Positions 1,368-43,342 of a DNA stretch of 64,000 nt are shown piece after piece; position 1 is the first letter of the stretch, and every line of letters starts with the position of its first letter. The stretch comes from Escherichia coli (lineage in GTDB: Bacteria; Pseudomonadota; Gammaproteobacteria; Enterobacterales; Enterobacteriaceae). Below the pieces are notes generated by a model, which saw only the letters and a list, made by a program, of their open reading frames with translations, did no database searches and was not told the origin of the DNA. The position numbers and the translations under genes were made by a program. The stretch is taken from the NCBI RefSeq assembly GCF_030384885.1, contig NZ_CP128613.1. The stretch is one strand, 5' to 3'.

Positions 1368-2680
<1,313 letters not shown>

Positions 2681-2721
2681 CCTGTACTCCATATGACAAC
2701 CGCCCTGACGGGCGGTTGAAT

Positions 2722-3498
2722 TTATTCTTCAGTTTTTTCGCTTTCTGCTTCAGCGTCGTTTTCCTCTTCCCGGTTTCGACCCTTACCAACGTAAAAGCGT
2801 GAGAAGAAGACACCAATTTCAAACAAGCAGTACATCGGGATCGCCAGCAGCGTTTGCGAGAAGACATCCGGCGGCGTCAGCAACATCCCGACGACGAATG
2901 CGCCAACCAGCACATACGGACGTTTTTTGCGTAAGTCTTCTGGCGAGGTAATCCCCATCCAGCACAGCAACACAATTGCCACCGGCACTTCAAAGGAGAC
3001 ACCAAACGCCATAAACAACGCCATAACGAAGCTTAAATAGCTGGCGATGTCGGTGGATACCTGTACCCCTTCCGGCGCGGTATTGGCAAGGAAGCCAAAT
3101 GCCAGAGGAAAGACCACAAAGTAGGCGAACGCCATGCCGATATAAAACAACAGAGAGCTGGAAACCAGCAGCGGCACCACCAGGCGACGTTCATGCTTAT
3201 ACAGCGCTGGGGCGATAAACGCCCACACCTGATAGAGAATCACCGGCGCTGACAGAATCAGCGACACCATAAAGGTCAGCTTGATCGGCGTAAAGAACGG
3301 TGAGGCCACGTCGGTGGCGATCATCGTTGAACCTTGCGGCAACTGCTTGATCAATGGCGCGGATACCAGGTGATAGATGTCATTGGCGAAATAGACCAGA
3401 CACAGGAATATCACGATCACCGCGATAATGCAGTTCAGCAGACGCTTACGCAGCTCAATCAGGTGCGTGATAAGCGGTTGAGTATCTTCTACAGACAT
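2722..3498 (-). CDS. tatC: Twin-arginine translocase subunit TatC
   Basis: 258 aa multi-pass membrane protein [21 protein letters not shown]... Confidence 0.95.
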
Positions 3499-3500
3499 GT

Positions 3501-4016
3501 TTACGGTTTATCACTCGACGAAGGGGAAGGTGCAGCGGTTTTCGGTTCAGCGTCCGCAGCTGGTTTTACCGCCGGCTCTGGCGTGGTTTCTGGCTTCTGT
3601 TGCGGCGAACTGGCCTGCGTTTGTGCAGCGGCAGGCGTTACGCCTTCATGCGCAGCTTCATTATCTTTCACCACCGGGTTATGGATGGTGTGCGCTTCAT
3701 CGCTCGCCTTTTCAGGATCGTTTGCAACGTAGGAACGCTTCATCGACTCCGCGGCCTGGCGTAGTTCATCCATCGACGCTTTCAGTTCGGGCGTCAGGTT
3801 AGTGAGGCTCGCCTTTTCAACCTTTTTCAGGCTGTCCTGAAACTCCTGGAGTTTTAACTCCTGGGTCAGTTCGTTCTGCACCGTTGTCGCCAGTGAACGC
3901 AACGCGCGAATCCAGCCAGCTACCGTTTTTACCGCCACAGGCAGTCGTTGCGGCCCCAGAACGACGAGGCCGATGATGAACACCAATAGCAGTTCGCTAA
4001 AACCGATATCAAACAC
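3501..4016 (-). CDS. tatB: Twin-arginine translocase subunit TatB
   Basis: 171 aa [26 protein letters not shown]... Confidence 0.95.
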
Positions 4017-4019
4017 GGA

Positions 4020-4289
4020 TTACACCTGCTCTTTATCGTGGCGCTTCGCGTCTTCTGTTTTAGCCTGTTCCTGATTCGTATCCGCCTGCTTATCGGCGAT
4101 AGTTTTCGCAGTAAAATCAGCATCCTGACTGGTTTTATCCTGCTTTGGTTCATCATCGCTCATTGCTTTTTTAAAGCCTTTGATCGACGCACCAAGATCG
4201 GAACCGATGGAGCCGAGCTTTTTGGTGCCAAAAAGCAGTACAACGATGACGGCAATAATCAATAACTGCCAAATACTGATACCACCCAT
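4020..4289 (-). CDS. tatA: Twin-arginine translocase subunit TatA
   Basis: ORF 4020..4331; start trimmed to Met15 ([27 protein letters not shown]...), giving the 89 aa TatA. Confidence 0.9.
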
Positions 4290-4367
4290 ACATGTTCCTC
4301 TGTGGTAGATGATGATTAAACAAGGCCGCATTATACGTTACACGGCCCGCCTTGAGCGATGAAAAAA

Positions 4368-6610
<2,243 letters not shown>

Positions 6611-9113: not shown

Positions 9114-9884
9114 CGTATGGCAGATACCTCTTCAACCACCGCTGGCGCACAAACGTTATTACGCGGGCTGGCGGTTCTTAATGCTGTTTATAACGGCTGC
9201 CATGACCTGAAAAGTATCGGCGAGTTCACCGGCACGACCCGGAGCACAACCCATCGTTTAGTCACCGTTCTGGTGGAACAACGCTACCTGCGCCACGTCC
9301 CAACGCAGGGCTACCAACTGGGCGCCAAACTGATCGAATTCGGTGCCAGAGCGCTGGAAAGCACCTCGCTGTACGAAATTGCGCTGCCCGTTTTGCAGCG
9401 TCTGGCCCGTTACACCCTGGACACCGTGCATCTGGGGATCGTTGAAGGCGACGAAGTGCTGTATCTGGAGAAGATCAACAGTCAGCGTGGGCTGGAAATG
9501 CGCTCACGCCCAGGCCATCGCATGCCACTGGCAATCACCGGCATCGGCAAGGCATTGATCCTCAACCGAACAGAAGAAGAGTGGCGCACGCTGTTTAAGA
9601 CCTGTGGTGATGAAACAAAACTGGGCACATTTATTCAGAACATGCGTCGTTATGCCGCCAGTGGTTTTGCTTTTGATCTGGAAGAGAACGAGCCGACTAT
9701 CCGTTGCGTTGCAGCGCCGGTTTACAACGCCCGGGATGAAATTGTGGCGGCTATTTCTGTCGCCAGTACCACTACGTATATGTCACTGGCGCGTCTGGAA
9801 GAACTGGCACCTTACGTCAAATCCTGTGCAGAAGAGATATCCGCTGAACTGGGCTGGGGTAAGCACGTCCGCAAAAATAAATAA
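9114..9884 (+). CDS. IclR/KdgR-family transcriptional regulator
   Basis: ORF 9030..9884; start trimmed to MADTSSTTAGAQTLLRGLAVLNAV (RBS AGGAG upstream); N-terminal HTH plus IclR-type effector domain (about 256 aa). Confidence 0.8.
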   Translation, partial: RMADTSSTTAGAQTLLRGLAVLNAVYNGCHDLKSIGEFTGTTRSTTHRLVTVLVEQRYLRHVPTQGYQLGAKLIEFGARALESTSLYEIALPVLQRLARYTLDTVHLGIVEGDEVLYLEKINSQRGLEMRSRPGHRMPLAITGIGKALILNRTEEEWRTLFKTCGDETKLGTFIQNMRRYAASGFAFDLEENEPTIRCVAAPVYNARDEIVAAISVASTTTYMSLARLEELAPYVKSCAEEISAELGWGKHVRKNK

Positions 9885-9907
9885 ACCATGACTAAAGGAA
9901 ACGGCTA

Positions 9908-10912
9908 ATGTCGGGAAACACCTCATTTATTGCCCTGGACTGGGGAACGTCATCGCTTCGGGCATGGCGTTTTGGCGACTCACCAAATCCACAAGAAAAA
10001 CGTGAATTCCCGTGGGGGATCATGAAATTACCCTCCCAGGCAGCAACACGTGAGGACGCTTTCCACGATACGTTTTTACGTGTCTGCGGCGACTGGCTGG
10101 CACAATCCCCATGCCCGATTCTGGCTTGCGGCATGATCGGCAGTGCGCAAGGGTGGCAACCCGCAGCTTATTTACCTTGCCCGGTCACTCTCGAGGGTCT
10201 GGCAAAGCAGTTGACGCCTGTTATCTACCAGCAGCAGACAATGCTGCACATCATTCCCGGCGTGATTAAAGAAGGTGAAATGCCCGAAGTGATGCGTGGC
10301 GAAGAGACACAAATCTTCGGTGCTATCTCGATGGAACCGGCCCTGCAAAACGCGCTCCGCCAGGGTATGCCTGTGCTGATTGGCTTACCTGGCACACATG
10401 CGAAATGGGCGGTAGTTGAAAACAACACCATTACCGATTTTCGAACCTTTATGACAGGCGAGTTATTTGATGTTTTATCCCGCCATTCGATTCTCGGTGC
10501 CACCATGCGTTCGGGAGATGAACCGCACTGGGATGCCTTCGCCCACGGGCTGACAGCGGCACAAGAGCATCATCAGACCGGATTATTATCGACGCTGTTT
10601 TCGACCCGTTCGCGCCTGCTGACCAGTAATCTTACGCCGTCCTCACAGGGGGATTACCTTTCAGGATTACTGATAGGCCATGAATTATGCGGTCTGGCAT
10701 CCAGTTTGCTACGTGATTTACCCGCCACAACACCGATCGCCTTAATCGGTAGCGCCACTCTGAACAGCCGCTATTCACAAGCATTCAGCCACGTTTTTCC
10801 CGACAGACAGCTACACGCCATTCCTAATGCCACTGAACAGGGGTTATGGCGAATCGCCCACGCTGCCGGGCTACTCTCCACCAACGCCAGGGAATGTACT
10901 CATGCCATTTAA
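9908..10912 (+). CDS. 2-dehydro-3-deoxygalactonokinase (DgoK)-family sugar-acid kinase
   Basis: 334 aa; motifs ALDWGTSSLRAW, MRGEETQIFGA, GTHAKW...ITDFRTFMTGELF align with DgoK hallmark motifs. Confidence 0.8.
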   Translation: MSGNTSFIALDWGTSSLRAWRFGDSPNPQEKREFPWGIMKLPSQAATREDAFHDTFLRVCGDWLAQSPCPILACGMIGSAQGWQPAAYLPCPVTLEGLAKQLTPVIYQQQTMLHIIPGVIKEGEMPEVMRGEETQIFGAISMEPALQNALRQGMPVLIGLPGTHAKWAVVENNTITDFRTFMTGELFDVLSRHSILGATMRSGDEPHWDAFAHGLTAAQEHHQTGLLSTLFSTRSRLLTSNLTPSSQGDYLSGLLIGHELCGLASSLLRDLPATTPIALIGSATLNSRYSQAFSHVFPDRQLHAIPNATEQGLWRIAHAAGLLSTNARECTHAI

Positions 10913-11531
10913 TACGCTTTTGCAAAAAACCGGGTTAGTCGCCATTTTACGCGGCGTGAAACCGGATGAGATTGTCGCCATCGGTGAAAAGCTGTATGCC
11001 GCTGGATTTCGCCTGATTGAGATTCCCATGAACTCGCCGGAGCCGTTGCAAAGTATCAGTTTACTGCGCGACGCCCTGCCTAAGGACTGCCTGGTCGGAG
11101 CCGGAACGGTGCTTTCGGTGGAGCAAGTCGTCGCGGTTAAAGAGGCTGGAGGCCAGATTATCGTAATGCCGCATTGCGATACTGCGGTGATCCGTCGTGC
11201 CCGTGCGCTGGGTATGTATTGTGCGCCTGGCGTCGCTACGCCCACCGAAGCTTTTGCTGCCATTGAACATGGCGCCAATGCCATCAAGCTGTTCCCGGCT
11301 GAACAAATTACGCCTGAAGTCACCAAAGCCTGGCGTGCGGTTATTCCACAATCCGTTCCGATGTTACCGGTTGGCGGTATCACTCCAGACACAATGGCGC
11401 GTTATCTGAGCCACGGCGCAAACGGCTTTGGCCTCGGTTCTGCGCTATATCGCCCCGGCATGACGCCAGAGCAAGTCTATGAAAATGCAGTACTGTTTAT
11501 GAACGCATGGAACAATTTAAATAGCAAATAA
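10902..11531 (+). CDS. KDPGal/KDPG aldolase (DgoA/Eda-family)
   Basis: ORF 10827..11531; start trimmed to MPFNTLLQKTGLVAILRGV at 10902, overlapping the kinase stop (translational coupling); strong resemblance to DgoA. Confidence 0.8.
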   Translation: MPFNTLLQKTGLVAILRGVKPDEIVAIGEKLYAAGFRLIEIPMNSPEPLQSISLLRDALPKDCLVGAGTVLSVEQVVAVKEAGGQIIVMPHCDTAVIRRARALGMYCAPGVATPTEAFAAIEHGANAIKLFPAEQITPEVTKAWRAVIPQSVPMLPVGGITPDTMARYLSHGANGFGLGSALYRPGMTPEQVYENAVLFMNAWNNLNSK

Positions 11532-11555
11532 CTGATAAATAAGGATATAAAAGCA

Positions 11556-12530
11556 ATGATAAAACATCTTACCTTACCGAAAAAAATGGCTGCAATGGTA
11601 CTTCTTGCCGGCGCTGCCCTCAGCACTGCGCCTGTGCAGGCGGCCTCCTGGCCAACCAAACAGATCGAGTTAGTCGTACCCTACGCGGCCGGAGGCGGTA
11701 CGGATCTGGTTGCCCGTGCCTTTGCTGATGCCGCCAAAAACCATTTGCCCGTCAGCATCGGGGTTATCAATAAACCTGGCGGTGGCGGCGCTATCGGCCT
11801 GAGTGAAATCGCCGCTGCCCGCCCTAACGGTTACAAAATGGGTTTAGGCACGGTTGAACTGACCACCCTTCCCAGTCTCGGAATGGTGCGTTTTAAAACC
11901 AGCGACTTTAAACCCATTGCCCGTCTGAATGCGGATCCTGCGGCTATCACCGTCCGTGCCGATGCACCGTGGAATAGCTATGAAGAATTTATGACTTACG
12001 CCAAAGCGAATCCCGGAAAAGTACGCATTGGTAACTCAGGCACCGGAGCAATCTGGCATCTGGCGGCAGCTGCACTGGAAGACAAAACGGGCGTGAAGTT
12101 TTCTCATGTCCCATATGACGGCGCAGCCCCTGCCATTACAGGCCTGTTAGGCGGGCATATTGAAGCGGTTTCCGTAAGCCCAGGTGAAGTTATCAATCAT
12201 GTGAAAGGCGGCAAGCTGAAGACACTGGTAGTGATGGCGGATGAACGTATGAAAACCATGCCTGACGTCCCGACGTTAAAAGAGAAAGGCGTTGATCTCT
12301 CCATCGGCACCTGGCGCGGCCTGATTGTGTCGCAAAAAACGCCGCAGGATGTGGTTGATGTTCTGGCTAAGGCCGCAAAAGAGACGGCTGAAGAGCCTGC
12401 ATTCCAGGATGCTCTGCAAAAGTTGAATCTCAACTATGCATGGCTTGATGGTGCCAGCTTCCAGACCCAAATCAACGAACAGGAAAAGTACTTTGACGAG
12501 TTACTAACTCGGCTGGGCTTGAAAAAATAA
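11556..12530 (+). CDS. tctC: Tripartite tricarboxylate transporter substrate-binding protein (TctC/Bug family), periplasmic
   Basis: 324 aa with N-terminal signal peptide MIKHLTLPKKMAAMVLLAGAALSTAPVQA; TctC-like fold motifs. Confidence 0.8.
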   Translation: MIKHLTLPKKMAAMVLLAGAALSTAPVQAASWPTKQIELVVPYAAGGGTDLVARAFADAAKNHLPVSIGVINKPGGGGAIGLSEIAAARPNGYKMGLGTVELTTLPSLGMVRFKTSDFKPIARLNADPAAITVRADAPWNSYEEFMTYAKANPGKVRIGNSGTGAIWHLAAAALEDKTGVKFSHVPYDGAAPAITGLLGGHIEAVSVSPGEVINHVKGGKLKTLVVMADERMKTMPDVPTLKEKGVDLSIGTWRGLIVSQKTPQDVVDVLAKAAKETAEEPAFQDALQKLNLNYAWLDGASFQTQINEQEKYFDELLTRLGLKK

Positions 12531-12546
12531 TCCCGAGGTACGGTCG

Positions 12547-13053
12547 ATGAACACAAAACAGTCTGTTGCTCAACTCGCCGTACCGCACCGCAAGCGCTTT
12601 TCATCCACTGTGGTGGTGGCGCTGTTACTTTGTGTGGTTGCTGGCGCGGTGATAATTAATGCCGCTGATTTTCCAGCAACTGCCATTGAAACGGATCCCG
12701 GTGCAAGTGCCTTCCCTACTTTCTATGCCTGCGCTCTGATTGTGCTCGCTGTCTTACTGGTGATACGCGATCTTTTGCTGGCAAAACCAGTCCCTTGCGC
12801 CAACGCACAGGAAAAACCGGCATTCAGGAAAACGGCAACGGGAATTGCGGCAACCGCGTTTTATATTGTGGCGATGAGCTACTGCGGTTATCTCATTACT
12901 ACTCCTGTTTTCCTCATCGTCATTATGACGTTGATGGGCTACAGGCGATGGGTACTCACACCGGGTATTGCGCTGCTGTTAACGGCAATCCTCTGGTTGC
13001 TGTTTGTCGAAGCGTTACAGGTGCCATTGCCTGTCGGCACATTTTTCGAATAA
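12547..13053 (+). CDS. tctB: Tripartite tricarboxylate transporter small membrane subunit (TctB family)
   Basis: 168 aa, four hydrophobic segments; position between tctC and tctA. Confidence 0.7.
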   Translation: MNTKQSVAQLAVPHRKRFSSTVVVALLLCVVAGAVIINAADFPATAIETDPGASAFPTFYACALIVLAVLLVIRDLLLAKPVPCANAQEKPAFRKTATGIAATAFYIVAMSYCGYLITTPVFLIVIMTLMGYRRWVLTPGIALLLTAILWLLFVEALQVPLPVGTFFE

Positions 13054-13065
13054 CAGGGGCCTGCA

Positions 13066-14556
13066 ATGTTTGAAAGTGAACTTTTAACTCAGGGGTTTTC
13101 GACATTACTCAGTAATCCTCAGGCGCTGCTGTTTGCCACGTTTGGAGTGATACTGGGTATTATGATTGGCGCTCTGCCTGGCCTGACAGCGACCATGGGT
13201 GTGGCGATTTTGCTGCCTTTCACCTACGGCATGGAGCCTGTTTCTGGCTTGTTGATGATTTGCGGTGTCTTTTTTGGTGGTGTGTATGGTGGTTCTATCA
13301 CCGCAATTTTGCTCAAAATTCCCGGTACGCCTGCCGCCGCTGCCACCGCCATTGACGGTTATGAGTTAACGAAGCAGGGAAAAGCCGGGCTGGCATTAAG
13401 TGCCGCCACGTTCTCTTCTTTTAGCGGTGGAACGCTCAGCATTATCGTATTGATGTTTCTCTCTCCGGTACTTGCCAGTTGGGCGTTGAAATTTAGTGCC
13501 TCGGAGTCCTTCGCCCTGGCAACCTTCGGACTAAGTATTATTGCCAGTATTTCCGGTGAGTCACTGATTAAAGGGCTGATTGCCGGGGTTGGCGGATTAC
13601 TGATCGCAACGATAGGCCTCGATCCGATGGGCGGTTTTCCACGCTTTACGGGCGGGTTTGTGGAACTGATGAATGTGCCATTTATCCCGGTGATGATTGG
13701 TCTGTTTGCTGCTTCAGAAGCGTTCCGTTCTATGGAACAAAATCAGCATATTCGTCAGAGCGCGAACGTGGCTATCGGCAGTCTGTTACTGCCCTGGCAA
13801 ACGCTACGCCGCATCGCATTAACCATTTTGCGCTCATCAGGATTAGGGGTTTTTATCGGCATGATCCCCGGTGCGGGGGCAGATATTGCAGCTTTTGTTG
13901 CCTATAACGAAACTCGTCGTTTCAGTAAGACGCCTGAAAACTTTGGTAAGGGTGAGATTAAGGCGGTGGCCTCCTGTGAGGCAGGCGCGAATGGCTGCAC
14001 CGGTGGCGCATTGTTACCTATGCTGACGTTGGGGATCCCAGGCGATGCGGTAACTGCCATCATGCTGGGCGCGTTAACGTTACAAGGGATGCAGCCAGGC
14101 CCACTGATGTTTACCGACCACGGCGATATGGTTTATACGCTGTTTGTCGGCATGATCTTTTGTTACTTCATGCTGCTAGTTCTTGGACTGCTCTCTTTGA
14201 AAGTCATCGGTAACGTGGTGAAGATCCCCGGCAATATTCTCACGCCGATGATCCTCGCACTTTGTGTGGTCGGGACTTATGCGTTGAACAATAGCCTGTT
14301 TGATGTTGGCATTATGCTGATTGCAGGCGTGGTGGGCTATTTCATGCAAAAAGGGGGGTATCCGGCATCACCCGTAGTGCTGGCATTGATTATGGGGCCA
14401 ATGGCGGAAAGTAATTTTCGCCGTGCGCTGTCGCTTTCTGGTGGGTCACTCGACTTTCTGTATACCCGACCGATAACCCTGGCATTGCTGACACTGGCAG
14501 CCTTTACGCTACTGACGCCAATAATACGCAAAATTATGCGCTTACGGCGTCAGTAA
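13066..14556 (+). CDS. tctA: Tripartite tricarboxylate transporter large permease (TctA family)
   Basis: 496 aa polytopic membrane protein; TctA-like glycine-rich hydrophobic segments. Confidence 0.85.
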   Translation: MFESELLTQGFSTLLSNPQALLFATFGVILGIMIGALPGLTATMGVAILLPFTYGMEPVSGLLMICGVFFGGVYGGSITAILLKIPGTPAAAATAIDGYELTKQGKAGLALSAATFSSFSGGTLSIIVLMFLSPVLASWALKFSASESFALATFGLSIIASISGESLIKGLIAGVGGLLIATIGLDPMGGFPRFTGGFVELMNVPFIPVMIGLFAASEAFRSMEQNQHIRQSANVAIGSLLLPWQTLRRIALTILRSSGLGVFIGMIPGAGADIAAFVAYNETRRFSKTPENFGKGEIKAVASCEAGANGCTGGALLPMLTLGIPGDAVTAIMLGALTLQGMQPGPLMFTDHGDMVYTLFVGMIFCYFMLLVLGLLSLKVIGNVVKIPGNILTPMILALCVVGTYALNNSLFDVGIMLIAGVVGYFMQKGGYPASPVVLALIMGPMAESNFRRALSLSGGSLDFLYTRPITLALLTLAAFTLLTPIIRKIMRLRRQ

Positions 14557-16605: not shown

Positions 16606-16996
16606 TTTCCTCTTATTCTATATTTGAGATGGTGAGTGAACGAATGCGTTTTGCTGCCATCTCTGTCCCCCAAAAAATAATCAGTATGAATTGATTGGAG
16701 AGCACGACTCCGCTATTTGACCTTAAGAAAGTCGGCAAGTCATAGTCATAAATGAGTCTCTTCACTGGCAGACACCTTAAAGATTTACCATCAACTCCCA
16801 TTCTCAAACAAACATTAATTATTATCAACACATTCACATTAATTATAAATTACCTCAGACCTTCCTGATAAAAAGATATTAAAGTGAAACATTTTGTTTT
16901 TCACATTTTAGTTCATCCCTTTTAGGCGTAAATAAAGGTAAAAAATAACAATACTATTTTTCTTTCACAAAAAAATTAACAAAAGGTTTTTCAAGG

Positions 16997-18145
16997 ATGA
17001 GTGATATTATCTACCTGACCATAACCGGAGAACAACACGGATGTATTTCCTCTCGTTGTGGAACGAGCACATCAATAGGTAATCGCTGGCAGATTGGTCA
17101 TGAAGATGAAATCTTCGCATTCTCGCTCTCTAATAGTATTACGAATACAGGAAAAGGGTCACATTTGCATGGCCTTAGTTTCTGTAAGTTGATTGACAAA
17201 AGCTCCCCGTTACTTATTAACGCTATTAACAATAACGAGCAGTTGTTCATGGAGTTTGACTTCTATCGGATCAATAGATTTGGTCGATGGGAGAAATATT
17301 ACAACATTCAACTCCGCGGCGCGCTCTTATCAGCAATCAATCACCTGTTTACGGAGAACAATCTGGATACAGAAACCATCACTGTCAGTTATGAATATAT
17401 ACTCTCCAGGCATCTGATTGCTAATACTGAATTTAGTTATTTGGCATTTCCCGATAACTACAATCGTCTGTTTATACCACGGCCAAAAACTAAAGATGAT
17501 AATGGCCTCAAAACACTCAATAGTAAAGCTGTTGGCAGACTGCTTGCTGCTGGCGGCATATACAATGGGAATATCGAAGGATTCAGGGAAACAGCAAACA
17601 AGTTGGGGGGAGATGCACCTGCTGGTTACGATCAAGTTATGGATAACAAAGGGTTACTCATCGCTGGTGCTTCAATAGTTGCTGGAGCAGTTCTGGGGAG
17701 AATGAGACTCCCTGATTTGGAATCACTTGAGCATTTCGGAGCCAGAGGAGCAGTATCAGGAAGACCATTTAATCCCGACCTTGCCGGTGGTCCAATAGAA
17801 AATCTGACGACAGATGGCGTAACAATCAACAGGGAAGGTATCGCTATTGTTGAAAAACACATAGCCAGATTTGGTCATGACCCTGTAAATGAAGTGATGA
17901 TCAATAGACTGAAAGACATTGAGAAAGGAAAAATCCCCCCAGAACAAGTAGATCTTAACTTCTATACTCATGAATGTCGGGAATATCAGCGTTACTGTAA
18001 TCTTGGTTGGGAAACAGGACAACCTGATGGTGACGCAGGCTATGCACTCTGGAATCATACGCATACTGCTACTCTAGAAGATTATAAACTTAAGGGAGAA
18101 CTTAATGACTTATACCACCAGGACGCACTTGACTATGATAACTGA
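16997..18145 (+). CDS. Hcp (T6SS tube protein TssD) N-terminal domain fused to a C-terminal extension of unknown function, Hcp-ET-like; not associated with a T6SS gene cluster
   Basis: 382 aa; residues 1-155 carry the Hcp hallmark ...HGLSFCKLIDKSSPLLINAINNNEQLFMEFDFYRI...; residues about 156-382 are an extension with no Hcp counterpart; RBS AAGGA upstream; AT-rich. Confidence 0.75.
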   Translation: MSDIIYLTITGEQHGCISSRCGTSTSIGNRWQIGHEDEIFAFSLSNSITNTGKGSHLHGLSFCKLIDKSSPLLINAINNNEQLFMEFDFYRINRFGRWEKYYNIQLRGALLSAINHLFTENNLDTETITVSYEYILSRHLIANTEFSYLAFPDNYNRLFIPRPKTKDDNGLKTLNSKAVGRLLAAGGIYNGNIEGFRETANKLGGDAPAGYDQVMDNKGLLIAGASIVAGAVLGRMRLPDLESLEHFGARGAVSGRPFNPDLAGGPIENLTTDGVTINREGIAIVEKHIARFGHDPVNEVMINRLKDIEKGKIPPEQVDLNFYTHECREYQRYCNLGWETGQPDGDAGYALWNHTHTATLEDYKLKGELNDLYHQDALDYDN

Positions 18146-18380
18146 AACTGAAATTAACATACTGAAAGTTATGGCTGAGAAAGATATAAACTGGAACTGG
18201 ATGAATCTCGATCGCACACTATCTATAAGGCAAATTCCAGGATTCGGTAATGTTGTTAACATTGTTAACAAATTAGCTAACGAGGGTTTGGTTATTATTG
18301 AGGATAGCGGACATAAGTCTATGCCTCACTACCACGTTACTGATAAGGGATACAATCTCGTGAAAAGTGAGAATAAATAA
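18105..18380 (+). CDS. Small protein overlapping the 3' end of the Hcp-fusion gene; candidate cognate immunity protein (alternative start at 18135)
   Basis: 91 aa ORF with GGGAG RBS; overlaps the upstream stop, typical of toxin-immunity pairs; no recognisable family. Confidence 0.5.
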   Translation: MTYTTRTHLTMITETEINILKVMAEKDINWNWMNLDRTLSIRQIPGFGNVVNIVNKLANEGLVIIEDSGHKSMPHYHVTDKGYNLVKSENK

Positions 18381-18528
18381 CGTAGCGTTGATTACTGAAC
18401 AAATCGCTCAGGATTATATTTTGCGAAAAAAATGATTCGGTTATTTCTGTGTCTGAACGGCCGCAGATAGCAAAATGGCTTCCGGTGATGGAAGCCATCA
18501 GATTATTGGCAAAGTGCGTGTTGTTCAT

Positions 18529-18559
18529 GCCGGATGCGGCGTGAACGCCTTATCTGGCC
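18529..18559. repeat. REP element (GCCGGATGCGGCGTGAACGCCTTATCTGGCC)
   Basis: REP consensus palindrome downstream of metE. Confidence 0.55.
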
Positions 18560-18666
18560 AACTAAATCTTGAAAATTCAATAAATTGAATAAATTATGTA
18601 GACTTGGTATCAGGCAGTTTTGCCTCTTTCATCGTACTGCAATTTACAGTGACTCGTTAATACTCA

Positions 18667-31179: not shown

Positions 31180-31560
31180 ATGAGTAAGGAATATATGAAC
31201 GATGGTTCATTAAGTGAAAAATGGAAATATCGCTTTAGTTTTTATGATCAACATGGCTTTCCTGGATTCTGGGGGGCAACACCAGAATATAAAGCAGCAT
31301 TTAAAGCATTAAAAGTAAGACAACGATTAACTATTCAAATTAATTTCATTGCTTTCTTCTGTTCCTGGATCTATCTATTTGTTCTGGGTTTATGGAAAAA
31401 AGCAATTATAGTTCTATTACTTTGCATTCTATCTCTATTTGTTGGTGCACTAATTGGCGTTAACATTTTGGGAATTGCCGTAGCAGCCTATGTTGCTGTT
31501 AACACGAACAAATGGTTTTATGAGAAAGAGGTAAAAGGGTTAAATACCTGGAGCCTTTGA
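31180..31560 (+). CDS. yigF: Small inner-membrane protein YigF (DUF2628)
   Basis: ORF 31138..31560; internal Met gives MSKEYMNDGSLSEKWKYRFSFYDQHGFPGFWGA... (126 aa). Confidence 0.6.
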   Translation: MSKEYMNDGSLSEKWKYRFSFYDQHGFPGFWGATPEYKAAFKALKVRQRLTIQINFIAFFCSWIYLFVLGLWKKAIIVLLLCILSLFVGALIGVNILGIAVAAYVAVNTNKWFYEKEVKGLNTWSL

Positions 31561-40350: not shown

Positions 40351-40538
40351 TATGGATTGCCTGTAAAGTTCATCGCTTTCTGCTTTCTATCATCGCAGGA
40401 GAAGACGTAAAAGCAAGCGTTTAGCGACTCTTTATGAAGTCTGAAAAATGAGGAATTGCTGCGAGTATAACGCTTACACGTGGTGATTTATGTTTTGCTG
40501 GTAGTTTCGTGATCGGCACCTCGCGCCAGGATGGCTTT

Positions 40539-42017
40539 ATGCACTATCGCAATGTGGTTTGTTTGTTGTCTTGTTCGTTATTCTTATCCCCGGCATGGGG
40601 ATGTCGGCTTTCCGCGCCTGAACATAATATTTACCAGAAACAGGGAAAAGGCGTGGTGTACCTGCGCCCTTATAAAGAAACAAATCTTTCTCTACCTGAC
40701 GTGAATTACAAGAGTTTGCGTCGTTTACCTAATTTATTAATAGACGCAACAACACAAGATGAATGGAATAAAGAACCACCTCTGACTGATCTAACAACTG
40801 ACAACCTCTATGAGGGCGCACAAGCCTGGTATCCCCATTACTCCTGGCATAGCGATGGTCGCTATATCCTCTACGCGGGTGAAGTAGTGCAAAATCCTCA
40901 CGACGCACCACCCGTCGATATCGCCTCATTCAAGGCATGGGGAGATTTTGCCGCGGATAAACACAGTCTCTATTTTGAAGGCAAGCGCACCGATAACAAT
41001 GGCGGGGGAAATAGCTTAGATATCAAAACACTGCATCAGGTGGAATTCCGGCCTCCCTGGGATCCTGACTTACTGGGGCTGATATTACGTGACGCTAATT
41101 TCTTGTATATCAATGGGCATCGCCTCGCAGATCCCGATAGTTTCCGTGTGCTGGCACAAAAGTCATGGGATCAGCGAGGAAAGTTTTCTACCGCGTTTAA
41201 TCCCTGTGTGGCTATGCCATTTGGCCCTTGGGATACCCTGGCTCGTACACGGACCAAAATCCTGATCAACGGCGAACAGCTTGATGCCGACCCGGACACC
41301 TTTTCCGTCGTGCGCTGGATGCCCGGCTCACTCTTGACCTGGCGTGATAAAAACGGGCTACAGCGTAAAGTCCTCGACAAGGAAAATCTGGCGTGGGATG
41401 AAGATTTAACAAAGCACTGTCTGGATTTTTCTCTGCTGGAAAAGAAAGTGTTCTGGCGTAAAGGGCCTGCTTGTAAACAGGAAGAAGTACCGGGGCTCGA
41501 TCCTGAACAGTTCCACCCCATCAGTGATGCTGTCGCCCAGTATCAGGATTCGCTTTATACCATCATCGAAACAGAGTCTGGTGACCGCAACCTGGAGATC
41601 GTAAAACTTGATGATCCCAATCTTATTATCAACAAACGTTTCAACGCCGGGAAACGCCATGGCTATTTACTTACGCGTGCCGAAGGGTGGCCAAACCATT
41701 CCGGTTTACACGTGTTTGAATCTGACGGACCGCTGATCTTACTGGATAACCACTCTCCGGATGAACGCGAAGCCCATCTTGATGACCATCCCTTTTTGCG
41801 CAGATGGTATGCCCGCGATAACCGCTACGTTTACAGCTTTGATGGCGCGCAGCTCTGGCGATACCGCACCGCGGATCCGAAACAAGTTCGCTTAATCTGG
41901 AAGGAACAACATTCGGGATATGGCTATGGCGTAAATTACAAAACGGGATATCTGGACGGAAAAATTACCGATGACGGCGAATTTATTCCTGCCCCGCGCA
42001 ATGAGGCGACAAAATGA
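40539..42017 (+). CDS. Secreted repeat protein, paralog 1 (DKNYY-like repeats; unknown function)
   Basis: ORF 40509..42017; start trimmed to MHYRNVVCLLSCSLFLSPAWG (signal-like); internal repeats such as DANFLYINGHRLADPDSFRV / TKILINGEQLDADPDTFSVV. Confidence 0.65.
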   Translation: MHYRNVVCLLSCSLFLSPAWGCRLSAPEHNIYQKQGKGVVYLRPYKETNLSLPDVNYKSLRRLPNLLIDATTQDEWNKEPPLTDLTTDNLYEGAQAWYPHYSWHSDGRYILYAGEVVQNPHDAPPVDIASFKAWGDFAADKHSLYFEGKRTDNNGGGNSLDIKTLHQVEFRPPWDPDLLGLILRDANFLYINGHRLADPDSFRVLAQKSWDQRGKFSTAFNPCVAMPFGPWDTLARTRTKILINGEQLDADPDTFSVVRWMPGSLLTWRDKNGLQRKVLDKENLAWDEDLTKHCLDFSLLEKKVFWRKGPACKQEEVPGLDPEQFHPISDAVAQYQDSLYTIIETESGDRNLEIVKLDDPNLIINKRFNAGKRHGYLLTRAEGWPNHSGLHVFESDGPLILLDNHSPDEREAHLDDHPFLRRWYARDNRYVYSFDGAQLWRYRTADPKQVRLIWKEQHSGYGYGVNYKTGYLDGKITDDGEFIPAPRNEATK

Positions 42018-43342
42018 AAGGTCAAATAATCACAGTTGCACTCATCCTGTTGGGGCACACATTTCTGACACCTGCTGTACAGGCCATAGGGTTCGACTAT
42101 TACAATGATCACGGTGTTATGTCTTACGGTAAAGGTTATGGGGAGGATGAGAAAATTATTGCCCAATTTCCGAAGATGAACAGAGCCGATTTGCGCCTTG
42201 TGACAAATATATCCGGGAAGCGGGAGTTAGTGGAAGGCTATATACCCACCGATGAAATAAGCATAAAAAATGAGGAATACCACTGGGTGACAGACGGCCA
42301 CGTTATTCTCTGGCGTGGCAAAATCGTTAGCAATCCACCGGGAACACCCACTGTCGATATTGCCAGCTTTCAAGCTATGGGCCGCTTCGCGGTCGATAAA
42401 TATAGCCTCTATTTTGACGGACAGCGCACCGAAAGTAATAGCGGCGCGTCACGTGTTGATCTGGCGACACTAAAAGCTATCGAAGGTAACTCTACCACGC
42501 TGGTGGATAGTAAAAATCTCTACTTGTCCGGTCGACGTCAGGGGAGCAGCAGTAATGTTACTGTATTAGAAAAAAGATGGTGGGGTATTAATCCACGTCT
42601 TATGAGTGTAAACAGAAATTTGTATTCCAATGATCTGCTTATCCGCAGTGGGCAGAATATTTATTTAAATGGCGTTCACCTTACGGCAAATGCAGACTCA
42701 TTTGAGATAATTCGCTGGATACCTCATTCACTGCTGGTTTTTCGCGACAATAAGGGTATGCATCGTTATCCCTTTGGTCAATTATCAGGCAAGGCAATAC
42801 CCGTAGATGATGACGTCTCTTTTGAAGTAGGGGAAAGTCGCGTTCGCTGGCGTAAACAGCTCACGCCCGACCGTCAGTGGAGCCAGTGGATAGACCTACC
42901 AAGTATTGAACCTGAACAATTTCATCTGATTACTGACAATATTGCGCAGTATAAAGATCGGCTGTATGTAACAAAATTATCGACTTTTGGTGAAGACCAG
43001 CTTGAAATAATCCCGCTGGATTCGCCAGACCTGGTCATTGATCACTCATTTAATCGCGGCAAACAGCATGCTTACTTTATCCACCAATTACGGTCACGCA
43101 AGAGCGTGCAAATTATTCCAACTAACAGCCCGCTAACTAAAAACGATCGCTTTGCTTATGACGATCGCAATGTTTATACATGGACCGATACAGAGGTAAG
43201 GATTACACCCTCCCCCTGCCCAGCGAAAACATACGTCAGAGAAAAGAATGTCCGTGAAATTCATAACAGCGACATTATTATTCCGGTGACGGAGGAATCG
43301 TGCCGGAACGCAGCAGCAGACGGGCAAACTTTGAAGCCCTGA
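42014..43342 (+). CDS. Secreted repeat protein, paralog 2 (DKNYY-like repeats; unknown function)
   Basis: 442 aa; signal peptide [24 protein letters not shown]; start ATG overlaps the upstream stop (ATGA); shares blocks VDIASF.A.G.FA.DK.SLYF.G.RT and EPEQFH.I.D..AQY.D.LY with paralog 1. Confidence 0.7.

What the first reader, a model, noticed from the sequence alone, without database searches (positions are those of the whole stretch)
16997..18145. Orphan Hcp-extension fusion protein (T6SS tube protein with a C-terminal domain of unknown function), no T6SS cluster nearby
The 382-aa product has a clear Hcp/TssD N-terminal domain (…HGLSFCKLIDKSSPLLINAINNNEQLFMEFDFYRI…, residues about 1-155) followed by about 225 residues with no Hcp counterpart. 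Hcp proteins with extended toxin domains are a known class of T6SS effectors, but this C-terminal domain matches no family I can recognise. It contains a Cys/His-rich patch (…NFYTHECREYQRYCNLGWETGQPDGDAGYALWNHTHTATLEDY…) that could be a catalytic or metal-binding site. Both flanks (ysgA, metE) are backbone genes and no T6SS structural genes lie within the window.
Basis: partly seen in the sequence, partly recalled or inferred. Interest (0 to 1): 0.85.

Follow-up and report, generated by a model that had tools for sequence, protein, structure and literature searches.

The report
Hcp-fused bacteriocin-type toxin with immunity gene
This E. coli gene fuses a type VI secretion tube protein to a killing domain that also arms colicin- and pyocin-like bacteriocins, and a small immunity gene follows it; the kind is known, but the toxin's fold and true target are still unsolved.

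Summary
Window 16997-18145 (+) is an intact 382-aa ORF with a significant N-terminal Hcp/TssD domain (residues 1-147) and about 235 further residues. It lies in a 2.06-kb low-GC islet between ysgA and metE, and the 64 kb holds no other T6SS gene.

The C-terminal part is not an orphan domain. Residues ~245-378 form a toxin module found at the extreme C-terminus of Rhs, PAAR, very large and S-type-pyocin/colicin-like proteins (553 clusters at 50% identity, 215 species). It very probably equals the carocin D/S3 and pyocin G/SX2 cytotoxic domain.

It has no Pfam or PDB match. Its confident AlphaFold model is all-alpha, not HNH, with no structural neighbour. The overlapping 81-aa ORF (18135-18380) belongs to a winged-helix family that follows the toxin in 69 of 72 loci, so it is the likely immunity protein.

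His325, Glu326, Glu329 and His356 are invariant across the 56 aligned sequences.

The PCN033 orthologue was already studied as "Hcp3", and Hcp-toxin fusions are a described class. This one is neither Hcp-ET1 nor Hcp-ET3/4. The nearest sequenced strain has T6SS core genes elsewhere.

Verdict: a new member of a known kind, of moderate interest.

The parts
16606..18666 (.). Low-GC islet inserted between the end of ysgA and the stop codon of metE. It carries the toxin and immunity genes.
   Evidence: GC is 0.32-0.45 against 0.52-0.57 in the flanks. The site is empty in E. coli 55989 (39 bp). The whole segment is covered at 80% or more in 384 of 5,426 complete E. coli genomes.
16606..16996 (+). AT-rich non-coding leader upstream of the fusion gene. 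The promoter was not identified.
   Evidence: Sequence read. The consensus scan gave only weak sigma-70-like sites, not more than in shuffles.
16997..18145 (+). Hcp-toxin fusion gene (382 aa), the orthologue of PCN033 hcp3.
   Evidence: ORF. The protein is about 97-98% identical by eye to PCN033 WP_001280045.1 (sequences printed). The published hcp3 primers T11 and T12 match the ends of the PCN033 gene exactly.
16997..17437 (+). Hcp/TssD tube-protein domain (residues 1-147).
   Evidence: TIGR03344 E=2.9e-35, above the curated cut-off. PF05638. PDB Hcp chains. It is 65% identical to the Hcp domain of UTI89 Hcp-ET3-4 up to residue 171.
17510..17716 (+). Conserved Gly-rich, hydrophobic linker module (residues ~172-240, ...GRLLAAGGIYNGN...GLLIAGASIVAGAVLG...). 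Its function is inferred only; it may be a membrane-entry or spacer segment.
   Evidence: It is shared with proteins that carry unrelated N-terminal domains. It also precedes a different toxin in P0235.
17729..18130 (+). Toxin core (residues ~245-378), a member of the bacteriocin / polymorphic-toxin cytotoxic domain family.
   Evidence: 553 cluster representatives at E<=1e-3, nearly all with the match at their C-terminus. Invariant residues. AlphaFold2 model with pLDDT 92, all-alpha. No PDB neighbour.
17969..18064 (+). Conserved motif block from H325-E326-x-x-E329 to W352-N-x-x-H356.
   Evidence: The column counts show that H325, E326, E329, W352 and H356 are each present in 56 of 56 sequences. 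They also show that C327 and C334 are not conserved.
17934..17939 (+). C6 homopolymer. It is C5 in RefSeq NZ_CP027579.1, which makes that copy a frameshifted pseudogene.
18135..18380 (+). 81-aa candidate immunity gene. Its start overlaps the end of the toxin gene by 11 nt. It has a winged-helix fold.
   Evidence: RefSeq annotates it as WP_000627418.1. It groups by BLAST with the ORF downstream of the toxin in 43 other loci, from enterics to cyanobacteria. An iterative search joins 69 of 72 loci. The family profile hits PadR/MarR-type structures at E~1e-4. The AlphaFold2 model has pLDDT 92.5 and a winged-helix topology.
18523..18559 (-). REP-type repeat at the right edge of the islet.
   Evidence: Weak naRNA4/REP match, 32 bits, below the gathering score. 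Sequence read.

Best explanation

**Architecture (shown by sequence analysis)**
- Residues 1-147 are an Hcp tube-protein domain.
- A junction conserved among Hcp-toxin fusions follows, then a Gly-rich hydrophobic linker (~172-240).
- Residues ~245-378 are a toxin domain. The same domain ends Rhs, PAAR and very large toxins, and it is the killing domain of colicin-type and S-type-pyocin bacteriocins.
- The 81-aa winged-helix protein encoded immediately downstream belongs to the family that follows this toxin almost everywhere.

**Mechanism (inferred)**
- A few fusion subunits are built into the Hcp tube of a T6SS encoded elsewhere in the genome, and are fired into neighbouring bacteria.
- The toxin domain reaches the target cytoplasm. 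There it acts as a metal-dependent enzyme on nucleic acid or on the translation apparatus, using the invariant His/Glu/Asp cluster (H288, D319, H325, E326, E329, H356).
- The producer and its kin are protected because the immunity protein binds and blocks the toxin.

**What remains open**
The substrate is unresolved. Published relatives were reported as DNases (carocin D and carocin S3). [quoted passage not shown]
For: - **Hcp domain:**
- **Modular break typical of polymorphic toxins:** the protein is 65% identical to UTI89 Hcp-ET3-4 up to residue 171, then unrelated. The UTI89 protein carries Pyocin_S and Col-Pyo_DNase domains instead.
- **Toxin core at the extreme C-terminus of many protein types:** 553 cluster representatives, attached to at least 50 unrelated N-terminal regions. 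These include Rhs, PAAR and colicin-like proteins.
- **Classical bacteriocin operons:** activity-immunity-lysis operons on small plasmids of E. coli and Klebsiella carry the domain at 47-48% identity, E about 1e-28 to 1e-29.
- **A P. aeruginosa pyocin:** an S2-type pyocin next to toxA carries it. Its immunity protein ends in TEKKYGIV, exactly what the published ImSX2 reverse primer encodes.
- **Carocin S3 immunity:** it is 90 aa, overlaps the killer gene by 4 bp, starts MINFKAM and ends YGL. This fits the bacteriocin-branch immunity group.
- **Conserved toxin-immunity pairing:** a short ORF follows the toxin, often overlapping by 1-4 nt, in nearly all of 79 loci. In 69 of 72 loci it belongs to one family on iterative search.
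- **Immunity fold:** winged helix.
- **A T6SS is available:** the chimeric query found 3 places in NZ_CP027579.1 against 1 for the fusion gene alone.
- **Published experiments on relatives:** toxicity, immunity and nuclease-type import are reported for pyocin G, pyocin SX2 and carocin S3.
Against: - Nothing was assayed for this protein: not secretion, toxicity, or neutralisation by the downstream ORF.
- In PCN033, deleting hcp3 did not reduce killing of E. coli W3110; hcp2 did. The hcp3 mutant was instead reduced in PK-15 cell invasion and in replication within macrophages.
- The link to the named bacteriocins rests on primer-encoded termini and on descriptions, not on their full sequences. 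I could not retrieve those sequences.
- Homology between the window-type immunity group (A) and the bacteriocin immunity group (B) is weak in a direct profile-profile test (hhalign P=0.0014, probability 17%).
- The nearest RefSeq copy is frameshifted. Some close alleles are broken by a stop codon or an IS element.
- No promoter was identified.
Confidence: 0.8

Rival explanations
1. It is Hcp-ET1, the published HNH-DNase Hcp fusion of STEC and O104:H4 strains, and works as a beta-beta-alpha-metal finger DNase.
For: PGAP names C-terminal fragments of this gene 'HNH endonuclease' or 'colicin'. Hcp-ET1 is also an orphan hcp followed by an immunity gene.
Against: - Reviews assign Pfam HNH (PF01844) or colicin E7/E9-type domains to Hcp-ET1. 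This protein and 56 relatives give no HNH hit: none reaches E<=0.001, and one member hits HNH_4 at 0.08.
- The confident model places His325 in a helix and is all-alpha.
- E. coli 55989, a named Hcp-ET1 carrier, has an empty ysgA-metE junction.
- The 'HNH' label appears to be inherited annotation. [quoted passage not shown]
Confidence: 0.04
2. It is mainly a host-interaction or structural Hcp ('Hcp3'). On this view the C-terminal domain serves adhesion, invasion or intracellular survival rather than killing bacteria.
For: In PCN033 the hcp3 deletion lowered PK-15 invasion (restored by complementation), replication in macrophages and colonisation in mice. It did not lower killing of W3110.
Against: - The same C-terminal domain is the killing domain of bacteriocin operons with lysis genes and of Rhs and PAAR toxins.
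- It is always paired with a small downstream gene. That pairing has no role in a host-directed factor.
- The domain also occurs in free-living cyanobacteria and planctomycetes.
- One prey strain under one condition does not exclude antibacterial activity.
Confidence: 0.08
3. The cassette is a decaying, non-functional remnant in this lineage. It is kept only because the immunity gene protects against neighbours that still fire the toxin.
For: - The RefSeq copy of the nearest strain is frameshifted in a C-tract.
- Three of the handful of alleles inspected are disrupted: N96 by a stop codon, MFDS1022581 by IS2, and EC2641 by IS903B.
- Several close relatives lack the PCN033-type tssC and tssM genes.
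- Fragments of the gene are common in databases.
Against: - The window copy is intact, with the same C6 tract as four other alleles checked.
- The exact 382-aa sequence is recorded on at least 1,000 contigs.
- A single-base loss in a homopolymer of one long-read assembly may be a sequencing error.
- The nearest strain does carry T6SS core genes.
Confidence: 0.1
4. The downstream 81-aa winged-helix protein is a MarR/PadR-type transcription regulator of the islet, not an immunity protein.
For: Some database sources name it 'MarR family transcriptional regulator'. Its profile hits PadR/MarR structures, with weak winged-helix Pfam hits.
Against: - At 81 aa it lacks the dimerisation helices of MarR and PadR regulators.
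- It is translationally coupled to the toxin gene.
- It co-varies with the toxin domain whatever the N-terminal carrier or phylum.
- In the bacteriocin branch, the gene in the equivalent position is an experimentally shown immunity protein: ImG, ImSX2 and CaroS3I.
Confidence: 0.06

Closest known systems
Hcp-ET effectors of Enterobacteriaceae (Ma et al. 2017, Virulence 8:1189; read only through reviews and citing papers)
   Same: - An N-terminal Hcp domain with a C-terminal toxin extension of more than 60 aa.
- An immunity gene directly downstream.
- Often encoded as an orphan islet between backbone genes.
- The Hcp domain and junction are 65% identical to UTI89 Hcp-ET3-4.
   Different: - The toxin domain is none of the Pfam-recognisable domains tested here. 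HNH, Pyocin_S plus colicin DNase, DUF2235 and any papain-like family all failed to give a Pfam hit.
- I could not read the primary paper, so I cannot say whether this protein is listed there among unclassified Hcp-ETs.
Hcp3 of porcine ExPEC PCN033 (Peng et al. 2016, PMC4882540)
   Same: It is the true orthologue: same locus between ysgA and metE, 382 aa, and about 97-98% identical by eye. The published primers match the PCN033 gene exactly.
   Different: That study treated it as an Hcp paralogue whose 'other half showed no homology'. It reported host-cell phenotypes. The toxin and immunity nature of the cassette was not recognised there.
Cytotoxic domain of carocin D / carocin S3 (Pectobacterium) and pyocin G / pyocin SX2 (P. 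aeruginosa), with their ~85-90-aa immunity proteins
   Same: - The domain has no Pfam family, and its predicted structure is unlike known bacteriocin nucleases.
- Bacteriocin operons that carry the window's domain at 45-48% identity have 85-90-aa immunity genes overlapping by 1-4 nt.
- The termini of ImSX2 and CaroS3I, deduced from published primers, fit these immunity proteins.
   Different: - Delivery differs. Here the domain is fused to Hcp through a Gly-rich linker. In the bacteriocins it follows receptor-binding, TonB-box and Pyocin_S (inner-membrane translocation) domains.
- The window's immunity protein belongs to a different subgroup (A) from the bacteriocin immunities (B). Only weak direct profile similarity links the two.
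- Identity with the named proteins is inferred, not shown by full-length alignment.
Rhs / PAAR / CdiA-type polymorphic toxin systems
   Same: The same C-terminal toxin domain and the same downstream immunity family occur on Rhs-core, PAAR and >5,000-aa proteins. The domain swaps at a conserved junction.
   Different: The carrier here is the tube protein Hcp rather than a spike-associated (PAAR/Rhs) or type V carrier.

Membership tests
Hcp / TssD (T6SS tube protein) | Sequence match to the Hcp family model above the curated threshold. | tested here: met
   TIGR03344 gives 121.6 bits against a cut-off of 58.9, over residues 1-147. PF05638 gives E=7e-14. PDB Hcp chains match.
Hcp / TssD (T6SS tube protein) | Forms hexameric rings and is exported by a T6SS. 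| not testable with these tools
   This needs biochemistry or a secretome. The only indirect point is that T6SS core genes exist in the nearest genome.
Hcp-ET (specialised Hcp effectors) | Hcp domain followed by a C-terminal extension of more than 60 aa that is a toxin domain. | tested here: met
   The extension is about 235 aa. Its last ~134 aa are homologous to the killing domains of bacteriocin operons and of Rhs and PAAR toxins.
Hcp-ET (specialised Hcp effectors) | A cognate immunity gene immediately downstream. | tested here: met
   An 81-aa ORF overlaps the 3' end of the toxin gene. Its family is linked to the toxin in 69 of 72 loci. Neutralisation itself was not tested.
Hcp-ET (specialised Hcp effectors) | T6SS-dependent delivery and interbacterial killing. 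| not testable with these tools
   The only experimental datum is negative: the PCN033 hcp3 deletion did not lose killing of W3110.
Hcp-ET1 (HNH-DNase clan) | C-terminal HNH / His-Me finger domain (PF01844 or colicin-DNase type). | tested here: not met
   No Pfam hit at E<=10 for the protein. Among 56 relatives none reaches E<=0.001. The AlphaFold2 model is all-alpha with no beta-hairpin. No His-Me finger appears among the fold-search hits.
Hcp-ET3 / ET4 (Pyocin_S + colicin DNase) | Presence of Pyocin_S (PF06958) and/or Col-Pyo_DNase. | tested here: not met
   UTI89 Hcp-ET3-4 has both domains. The window protein has neither and shows no similarity beyond residue 171.
Carocin D/S3 and pyocin G/SX2 cytotoxic domain | Sequence homology of the toxin core to the cytotoxic domain of nuclease-type bacteriocins that lack a Pfam cytotoxic family. 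| tested here: met
   tblastn to plasmid bacteriocin genes gives 44-49% identity over ~130 aa, with E from 1e-24 to 1e-29. The operon structure is confirmed. The P. aeruginosa pyocin L093 carries it.
Carocin D/S3 and pyocin G/SX2 cytotoxic domain | Those bacteriocins are the named ones (carocin D, carocin S3, pyocin G, pyocin SX2). | tested here: inconclusive
   - The evidence is indirect only.
- The ImSX2 reverse primer encodes ...TEKKYGIV, identical to the end of the L093 immunity protein.
- The CaroS3I primers encode MINFKAM... and ...YGL. The protein is 90 aa with a 4-bp overlap, like the group-B immunities.
- Full sequences were not retrievable.
Carocin D/S3 and pyocin G/SX2 cytotoxic domain | Immunity protein homologous to ImG, ImSX2 or CaroS3I. 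| tested here: inconclusive
   jackhmmer from the window ORF reaches the bacteriocin immunities (E from 1e-17 to 1e-4 in a 72-sequence set). Direct hhalign of the two groups gives only P=0.0014 and probability 17%.
Carocin D/S3 and pyocin G/SX2 cytotoxic domain | Nuclease, or other cytoplasmic toxic activity, blocked by the immunity protein. | not testable with these tools
   The literature is contradictory. Carocin D and carocin S3 were reported as DNases. Pyocin SX2 showed no DNase activity but inhibited transcription-translation in vitro.
PT1 DNase domain (Nachmias et al.) | Homology to the PT1 toxin whose complex with PIM1 was crystallised. | tested here: not met
   The family profile finds nothing significant among PDB sequences. 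The fold searches give no neighbour. This assumes the PT1-PIM1 structure is in the PDB copy searched.

The most novel reading that the evidence does not exclude
The domain may be a new enzyme fold. It is a four-helix core carrying an invariant H...D...Y-x-H-E-x-x-E...W-x-x-x-H constellation. Its real target may not be bulk DNA but a component of the translation apparatus, such as a specific tRNA or rRNA site, as the pyocin SX2 result hints. On this reading the same domain-immunity pair has been passed between T6SS (Hcp, PAAR, Rhs), bacteriocin and giant-toxin carriers, from enterobacteria to cyanobacteria and planctomycetes. The E. coli Hcp fusion would then be the most tractable system for solving the mechanism and structure of a widespread toxin family that Pfam lacks.
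Probability: 0.35. Interest if true: 0.6.

Novelty: new member of a known kind. Interest (0 to 1): 0.4.

Why it matters
- **Annotation:** a megablast match to this cassette is found in about 16% of complete E. coli genomes, including the B2 strains 536, S88 and ATCC 25922. It is routinely labelled just 'tube protein TssD' plus 'hypothetical protein' or 'MarR regulator'. Recognising it as an effector-immunity pair corrects that.
- **Reinterpreting 'Hcp3':** the published PCN033 Hcp3 phenotypes should be read again in this light.
- **Open biochemistry:** the toxin domain has no Pfam family and no solved structure, and reports on its activity conflict (DNase versus translation inhibition). It nevertheless occurs in 215 species across several phyla.
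- **Linking the literatures:** joining the Hcp fusion, the Rhs and PAAR toxins and the carocin/pyocin G bacteriocins in one family gives an easy E. coli handle on the mechanism. It also shows how one toxin-immunity module moves between diffusible and contact-dependent weapons.

Tried and rejected
1. **Hcp-ET1 identity.** Rejected: there is no HNH signal, the model is all-alpha, and the ysgA-metE and aroP-pdhR sites of 55989 are empty. I did not locate Hcp-ET1 itself.
2. **Hcp-ET3/4 identity.** Rejected by direct comparison with UTI89_C0121.
3. **PT1 of Nachmias et al.** No PDB sequence or fold match, and the reported catalytic His spacing (H44, H48) does not fit.
4. **Pyocin S3 'non-HNH DNase'.** I considered this because it also lacks a Pfam profile. 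I could not obtain the sequence. The pyocin G and SX2 papers say their domain is homologous to no other pyocin, so I did not adopt it.
5. **Papain-like or Cys-dependent activity.** Rejected because both cysteines are unconserved.
6. **Defence-system and phage libraries.** No hits.
7. **Motif strings in the literature.** No paper holds them. The supplements of the pyocin papers held no sequences.
8. **Second protein-database search.** It returned only short, generically named proteins and gave no 'carocin' or 'pyocin G' label.
9. **Alternative N-terminal domains (DUF8093 and a 142-aa domain).** I tested whether they are cryptic Hcp domains. hhalign probability was below 1%.
10. **Promoter and terminator scan, and Rfam.** Nothing beyond a REP element.
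11. **Papers I could not read.** Ma et al. 2017 is not held. The cap on papers was reached before I could read the carocin S2 mutagenesis paper (PMC8878655) or the 2026 Kleanthous review.
Full report

Yes. The ORF listing returns a single uninterrupted ORF at 16997..18145 on the + strand (382 aa, ATG start). The N-terminal part is an Hcp domain by three independent tests:
- NCBIfam TIGR03344 (TssD) matches residues 1-147 at E=2.9e-35, with 121.6 bits against a curated cut-off of 58.9.
- Pfam T6SS_HCP gives E=7e-14.
- Solved Hcp structures match, for example 6a2v at E=2e-13.

The remaining ~235 residues match nothing in Pfam (not even at E<=10), NCBIfam, PADLOC, PHROGs or the PDB sequence set.

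The window is E. coli. It is identical to RefSeq NZ_CP027579.1 (strain 2013C-4282, human stool) over the 2,071 bases compared, apart from one base. The annotation of that record confirms ysgA on the left and metE on the right. It also shows no other T6SS gene in the 64 kb.

The genes sit in a 2.06-kb islet (16606-18666) with GC 0.32-0.45, against 0.52-0.57 in the flanks. In E. coli 55989 the islet is absent and ysgA and metE are 39 bp apart.

There is one caveat. The RefSeq copy has C5 where the window has C6 (17934-17939), so PGAP flags that copy as frameshifted. The window and four other alleles checked (PCN033, MFDS1022581, N96, GF43) have C6.

**2. What is the C-terminal half?**

A search of 1.84 billion cluster representatives with residues 172-382 found 553 proteins at E<=1e-3, of which 72 were at E<=1e-30. 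In nearly all of them the match covers residues ~245-378 of the query and lies at the extreme C-terminus of the hit.

The hits range from ~130 aa to more than 5,000 aa and carry at least 50 unrelated N-terminal regions. Among those scanned were:
- an Rhs protein with YD repeats and an RHS core;
- a PAAR protein;
- proteins with LysM-like segments;
- colicin-like proteins with Gly-rich, TolA-like N-termini.

Database names and the AlphaFold-DB hits agree. They include 'S-type pyocin domain-containing', 'colicin', 'klebicin D activity protein', 'PAAR domain-containing', 'RHS repeat-associated', and a 2Fe-2S iron-sulfur (ferredoxin-type) domain protein from Pectobacterium. This is the signature of a polymorphic-toxin C-terminal domain.

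The family is well conserved: 42% mean column identity over 56 diverse members. The invariant residues, in protein numbering, are R256, G281, H288, F292, D319, Y323, H325, E326, E329, W352, H356 and A358. LWNN-x-HTATLEDY. The two cysteines are peculiar to the enterobacterial branch (Leu in 40 of 56 and Arg in 29 of 56 elsewhere). The His and Glu residues are universal.

**3. Fold**

AlphaFold2 on the 56-sequence alignment gave a confident model (mean pLDDT 92.1, pTM 0.84). It is essentially all-alpha, with four long helices at core residues 44-55, 61-74, 82-100 and 111-127. His325 lies inside the third helix.

The 'HNH endonuclease' and 'colicin' names that PGAP gives to fragments of this gene are therefore not supported by sequence or by the model. 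[quoted passage not shown]

**4. Link to known bacteriocins**

tblastn against plasmids found the domain (44-49% identity over ~130 aa, E from 1e-24 to 1e-29) as the C-terminus of 'S-type pyocin domain' proteins. These lie on small ColE1-type plasmids of Klebsiella (5,783 bp) and E. coli (6,995 and 7,301 bp) and on larger plasmids of other genera.

The two plasmids I opened have textbook colicin operons: an activity gene (747 or 780 aa), a small ORF of 90 or 87 aa, and a lysis gene.

In P. aeruginosa the domain ends a 711-aa pyocin with the pyocin S2 N-terminus (the M11VITH15 TonB box). The gene lies next to toxA and is followed by an 85-aa 'immunity protein'.

The literature describes exactly such a cytotoxic domain.
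[quoted passage not shown] Their immunity proteins are 85-90 aa.

I could not retrieve those sequences, but three details tie them to this family.
- The published ImSX2 reverse primer encodes ...TEKKYGIV. These are the last eight residues of the P. aeruginosa immunity protein found here.
- The CaroS3I primers encode MINFKAM... and ...YGL. The protein is 90 aa and its gene overlaps the killer gene by 4 bp. The E. coli plasmid immunity has the same length and a similar start and end (MIDFERM...KKYGIN, 90 aa).
- A review lists carocin S3 among nucleases 'with undetectable domains'.

I rate this identification at about 0.8.

**5. The downstream gene**

RefSeq annotates an 81-aa protein at 18135-18380 (WP_000627418.1). 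Its ATG lies 11 nt inside the end of the toxin gene.

A scan of one genome per species (100,044 species) found 215 species that encode the toxin domain. They include Enterobacterales, Pseudomonas, Burkholderiales, Xanthomonadales, many cyanobacteria, Planctomycetes, Bacteroidota, Alphaproteobacteria and Acidobacteriota. In the 79 loci fetched, a short ORF (mostly 77-96 aa) almost always follows the toxin, often overlapping it by 1-4 nt.

These ORFs sort as follows.
- By BLAST, 43 of them group with the window's ORF (group A). They range from enterics to cyanobacteria.
- A further 24, all behind bacteriocin-type proteins, form group B.
- An iterative search started from the window's ORF reaches 69 of 72.
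- A direct profile-profile comparison of A and B is only weakly positive (P=0.0014, probability 17%). I therefore call their common origin probable, not shown.

The group-A profile hits PadR/MarR-type winged-helix structures at E about 1e-4. It gives weak winged-helix Pfam hits but matches no dedicated family. AlphaFold2 gives a confident helix-helix-helix-strand-strand-helix model, with pLDDT 92.5.

Conserved, translationally coupled linkage to one toxin domain, whatever the carrier or phylum, is what defines an immunity gene. The group-B counterparts ImG, ImSX2 and CaroS3I are experimentally shown immunities.

**6. Relation to published Hcp fusions**

Hcp proteins with C-terminal toxins (Hcp-ET) are an established class. 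I know it here only through reviews, because the primary paper is not held.

The window protein shares its Hcp domain and the junction (...NTEF-x-YLAFP-x2-YN-x-LFIP-x-PK) with UTI89 Hcp-ET3-4 at 65% identity up to residue 171. After that the two are unrelated. The UTI89 protein continues with Pyocin_S and Col-Pyo_DNase domains.

Hcp-ET1 is described as carrying a Pfam HNH or colicin E7/E9-type domain. This protein does not, and the named Hcp-ET1 carrier 55989 has no insert at this locus. So this is a further Hcp-ET variant with a different toxin.

Its PCN033 orthologue (about 97-98% identical by eye, same locus) is the published 'Hcp3'. Primers T11 and T12 of that study match the two ends of the gene exactly. 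[quoted passage not shown] It found reduced cell invasion, reduced replication in macrophages and reduced colonisation in the mutant, but no loss of killing of E. coli W3110.

**7. Distribution in E. coli, and the missing T6SS**

- 848 of 5,426 complete genomes have a megablast match to the gene plus its downstream ORF.
- 813 of these cover at least 80% of the query.
- 123 are at 95% identity or more (this allele). Most of the rest are at 80-90%. A 377-aa form with a diverged C-terminal tip is in the same 90% protein cluster.
- Some alleles are broken by a stop codon or by an IS element.

To ask whether the strain has a T6SS at all, I joined the fusion gene to 1-kb pieces of tssC and tssM from the PCN033 cluster at aspV and searched again. 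NZ_CP027579.1 then showed three places, against one for the fusion gene alone. The nearest sequenced strain therefore has homologous T6SS core genes elsewhere. Several of its closest relatives at this locus showed only one place.

**8. How it most likely works**

*Shown:* the domain architecture, the family membership of the toxin core, the conserved toxin-immunity linkage, and the presence of T6SS genes in the nearest genome.

*Inferred:*
- The fusion is incorporated into the Hcp tube. Incorporation is probably sub-stoichiometric, alongside a canonical Hcp, because six 25-kDa extensions cannot fit in one ring lumen. A citing preprint proposes the same.
- It is fired into neighbouring cells.
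- The toxin acts in the target cytoplasm through the invariant His/Glu/Asp cluster.
- The winged-helix protein blocks it in the producer.

The conserved Gly-rich hydrophobic linker (residues ~172-240) is a separate module. It joins the toxin to two other N-terminal domains that are not detectably Hcp, and it precedes a different toxin in another protein. It may take the role that the Pyocin_S inner-membrane translocation domain plays in the bacteriocins. That is speculation.

The substrate is open. Carocin D and carocin S3 were reported as DNases. Pyocin SX2 showed no DNase activity but halved reporter output in a transcription-translation assay.

**9. Verdict**

The protein is an orphan Hcp-toxin fusion. 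However, the toxin is a member of a widespread family already met in bacteriocins, the gene's orthologue has been published, and the class is known.

What remains interesting is the toxin domain itself. It has no Pfam family and no solved structure. Its confidently predicted fold has no structural neighbour, and the biochemical reports on it conflict.

I file it as a new member of a known kind, with interest 0.4.

Noticed in passing
window 9117-14556: An IclR regulator, a 2-dehydro-3-deoxygalactonate kinase and aldolase, and a Bug/TctB/TctA tripartite tricarboxylate transporter lie between rmuC and udp. E. coli 55989 has udp directly next to rmuC, so this is a second accessory insert near the finding.
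   Followed up: no
window ~40538-43341: Two adjacent 'DKNYY family protein' genes lie between lptM and cyaY. This is an unusual insert in a conserved backbone region.
   Followed up: no
window 17934-17939 (also yigF, ~31180-31559): The window has C6 where RefSeq NZ_CP027579.1 has C5, which turns that copy into a 'frameshifted' pseudogene. The same RefSeq record also flags yigF as frameshifted. This suggests homopolymer errors in that assembly rather than real decay.
   Followed up: partly
window 18523-18559: A REP-type repeat sits at the right end of the islet (weak naRNA4 match, below gathering). It explains the tens of thousands of megablast places in the first search.
   Followed up: yes
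proteins P0013, P0022, P0235 (relatives; window residues 172-240 = 17510-17716): In other Enterobacterales the Gly-rich linker plus toxin is fused to DUF8093 (PF26362) or to an unannotated 142-aa domain. Neither is detectably Hcp-like (hhalign probability below 1%). In P0235 the linker alone precedes a different C-terminal toxin. What secretes these proteins is unknown.
   Followed up: partly
loci L042-L046 (Microcoleus and related cyanobacteria), ORFs starting 1 nt before the toxin stop: Here the immunity homologue is 160 aa. A group-A winged-helix part is followed by a C-terminal part that looks HicB/UPF0150-like by eye. I did not test this.
   Followed up: no
locus L093 (P. aeruginosa, next to toxA), 2312-6330: An S2-type pyocin carries this cytotoxic domain and is followed by its 85-aa immunity gene. 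After that come an orphan colicin-immunity gene, two fragments of a pyocin S6-type cytotoxin and an S6 immunity gene. It looks like a graveyard of swapped killing modules.
   Followed up: partly
locus L002 (PCN033) 1898-3046 and window 18135: The published hcp3 deletion removes the whole 1,149-bp ORF. Primer P10 starts just after the stop codon, so the deletion also removes the start codon of the overlapping immunity gene. This matters for interpreting that mutant and its complementation.
   Followed up: partly
locus L007 (E. coli 55989) 825-2161, next to corA: A 'DUF943 family protein' and a 'YPO3983 family protein' pair is inserted beside corA in 55989. One paper proposes DUF943 as the immunity partner of a colicin M-like T6SS toxin. 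The window's corA region lacks this insert.
   Followed up: no
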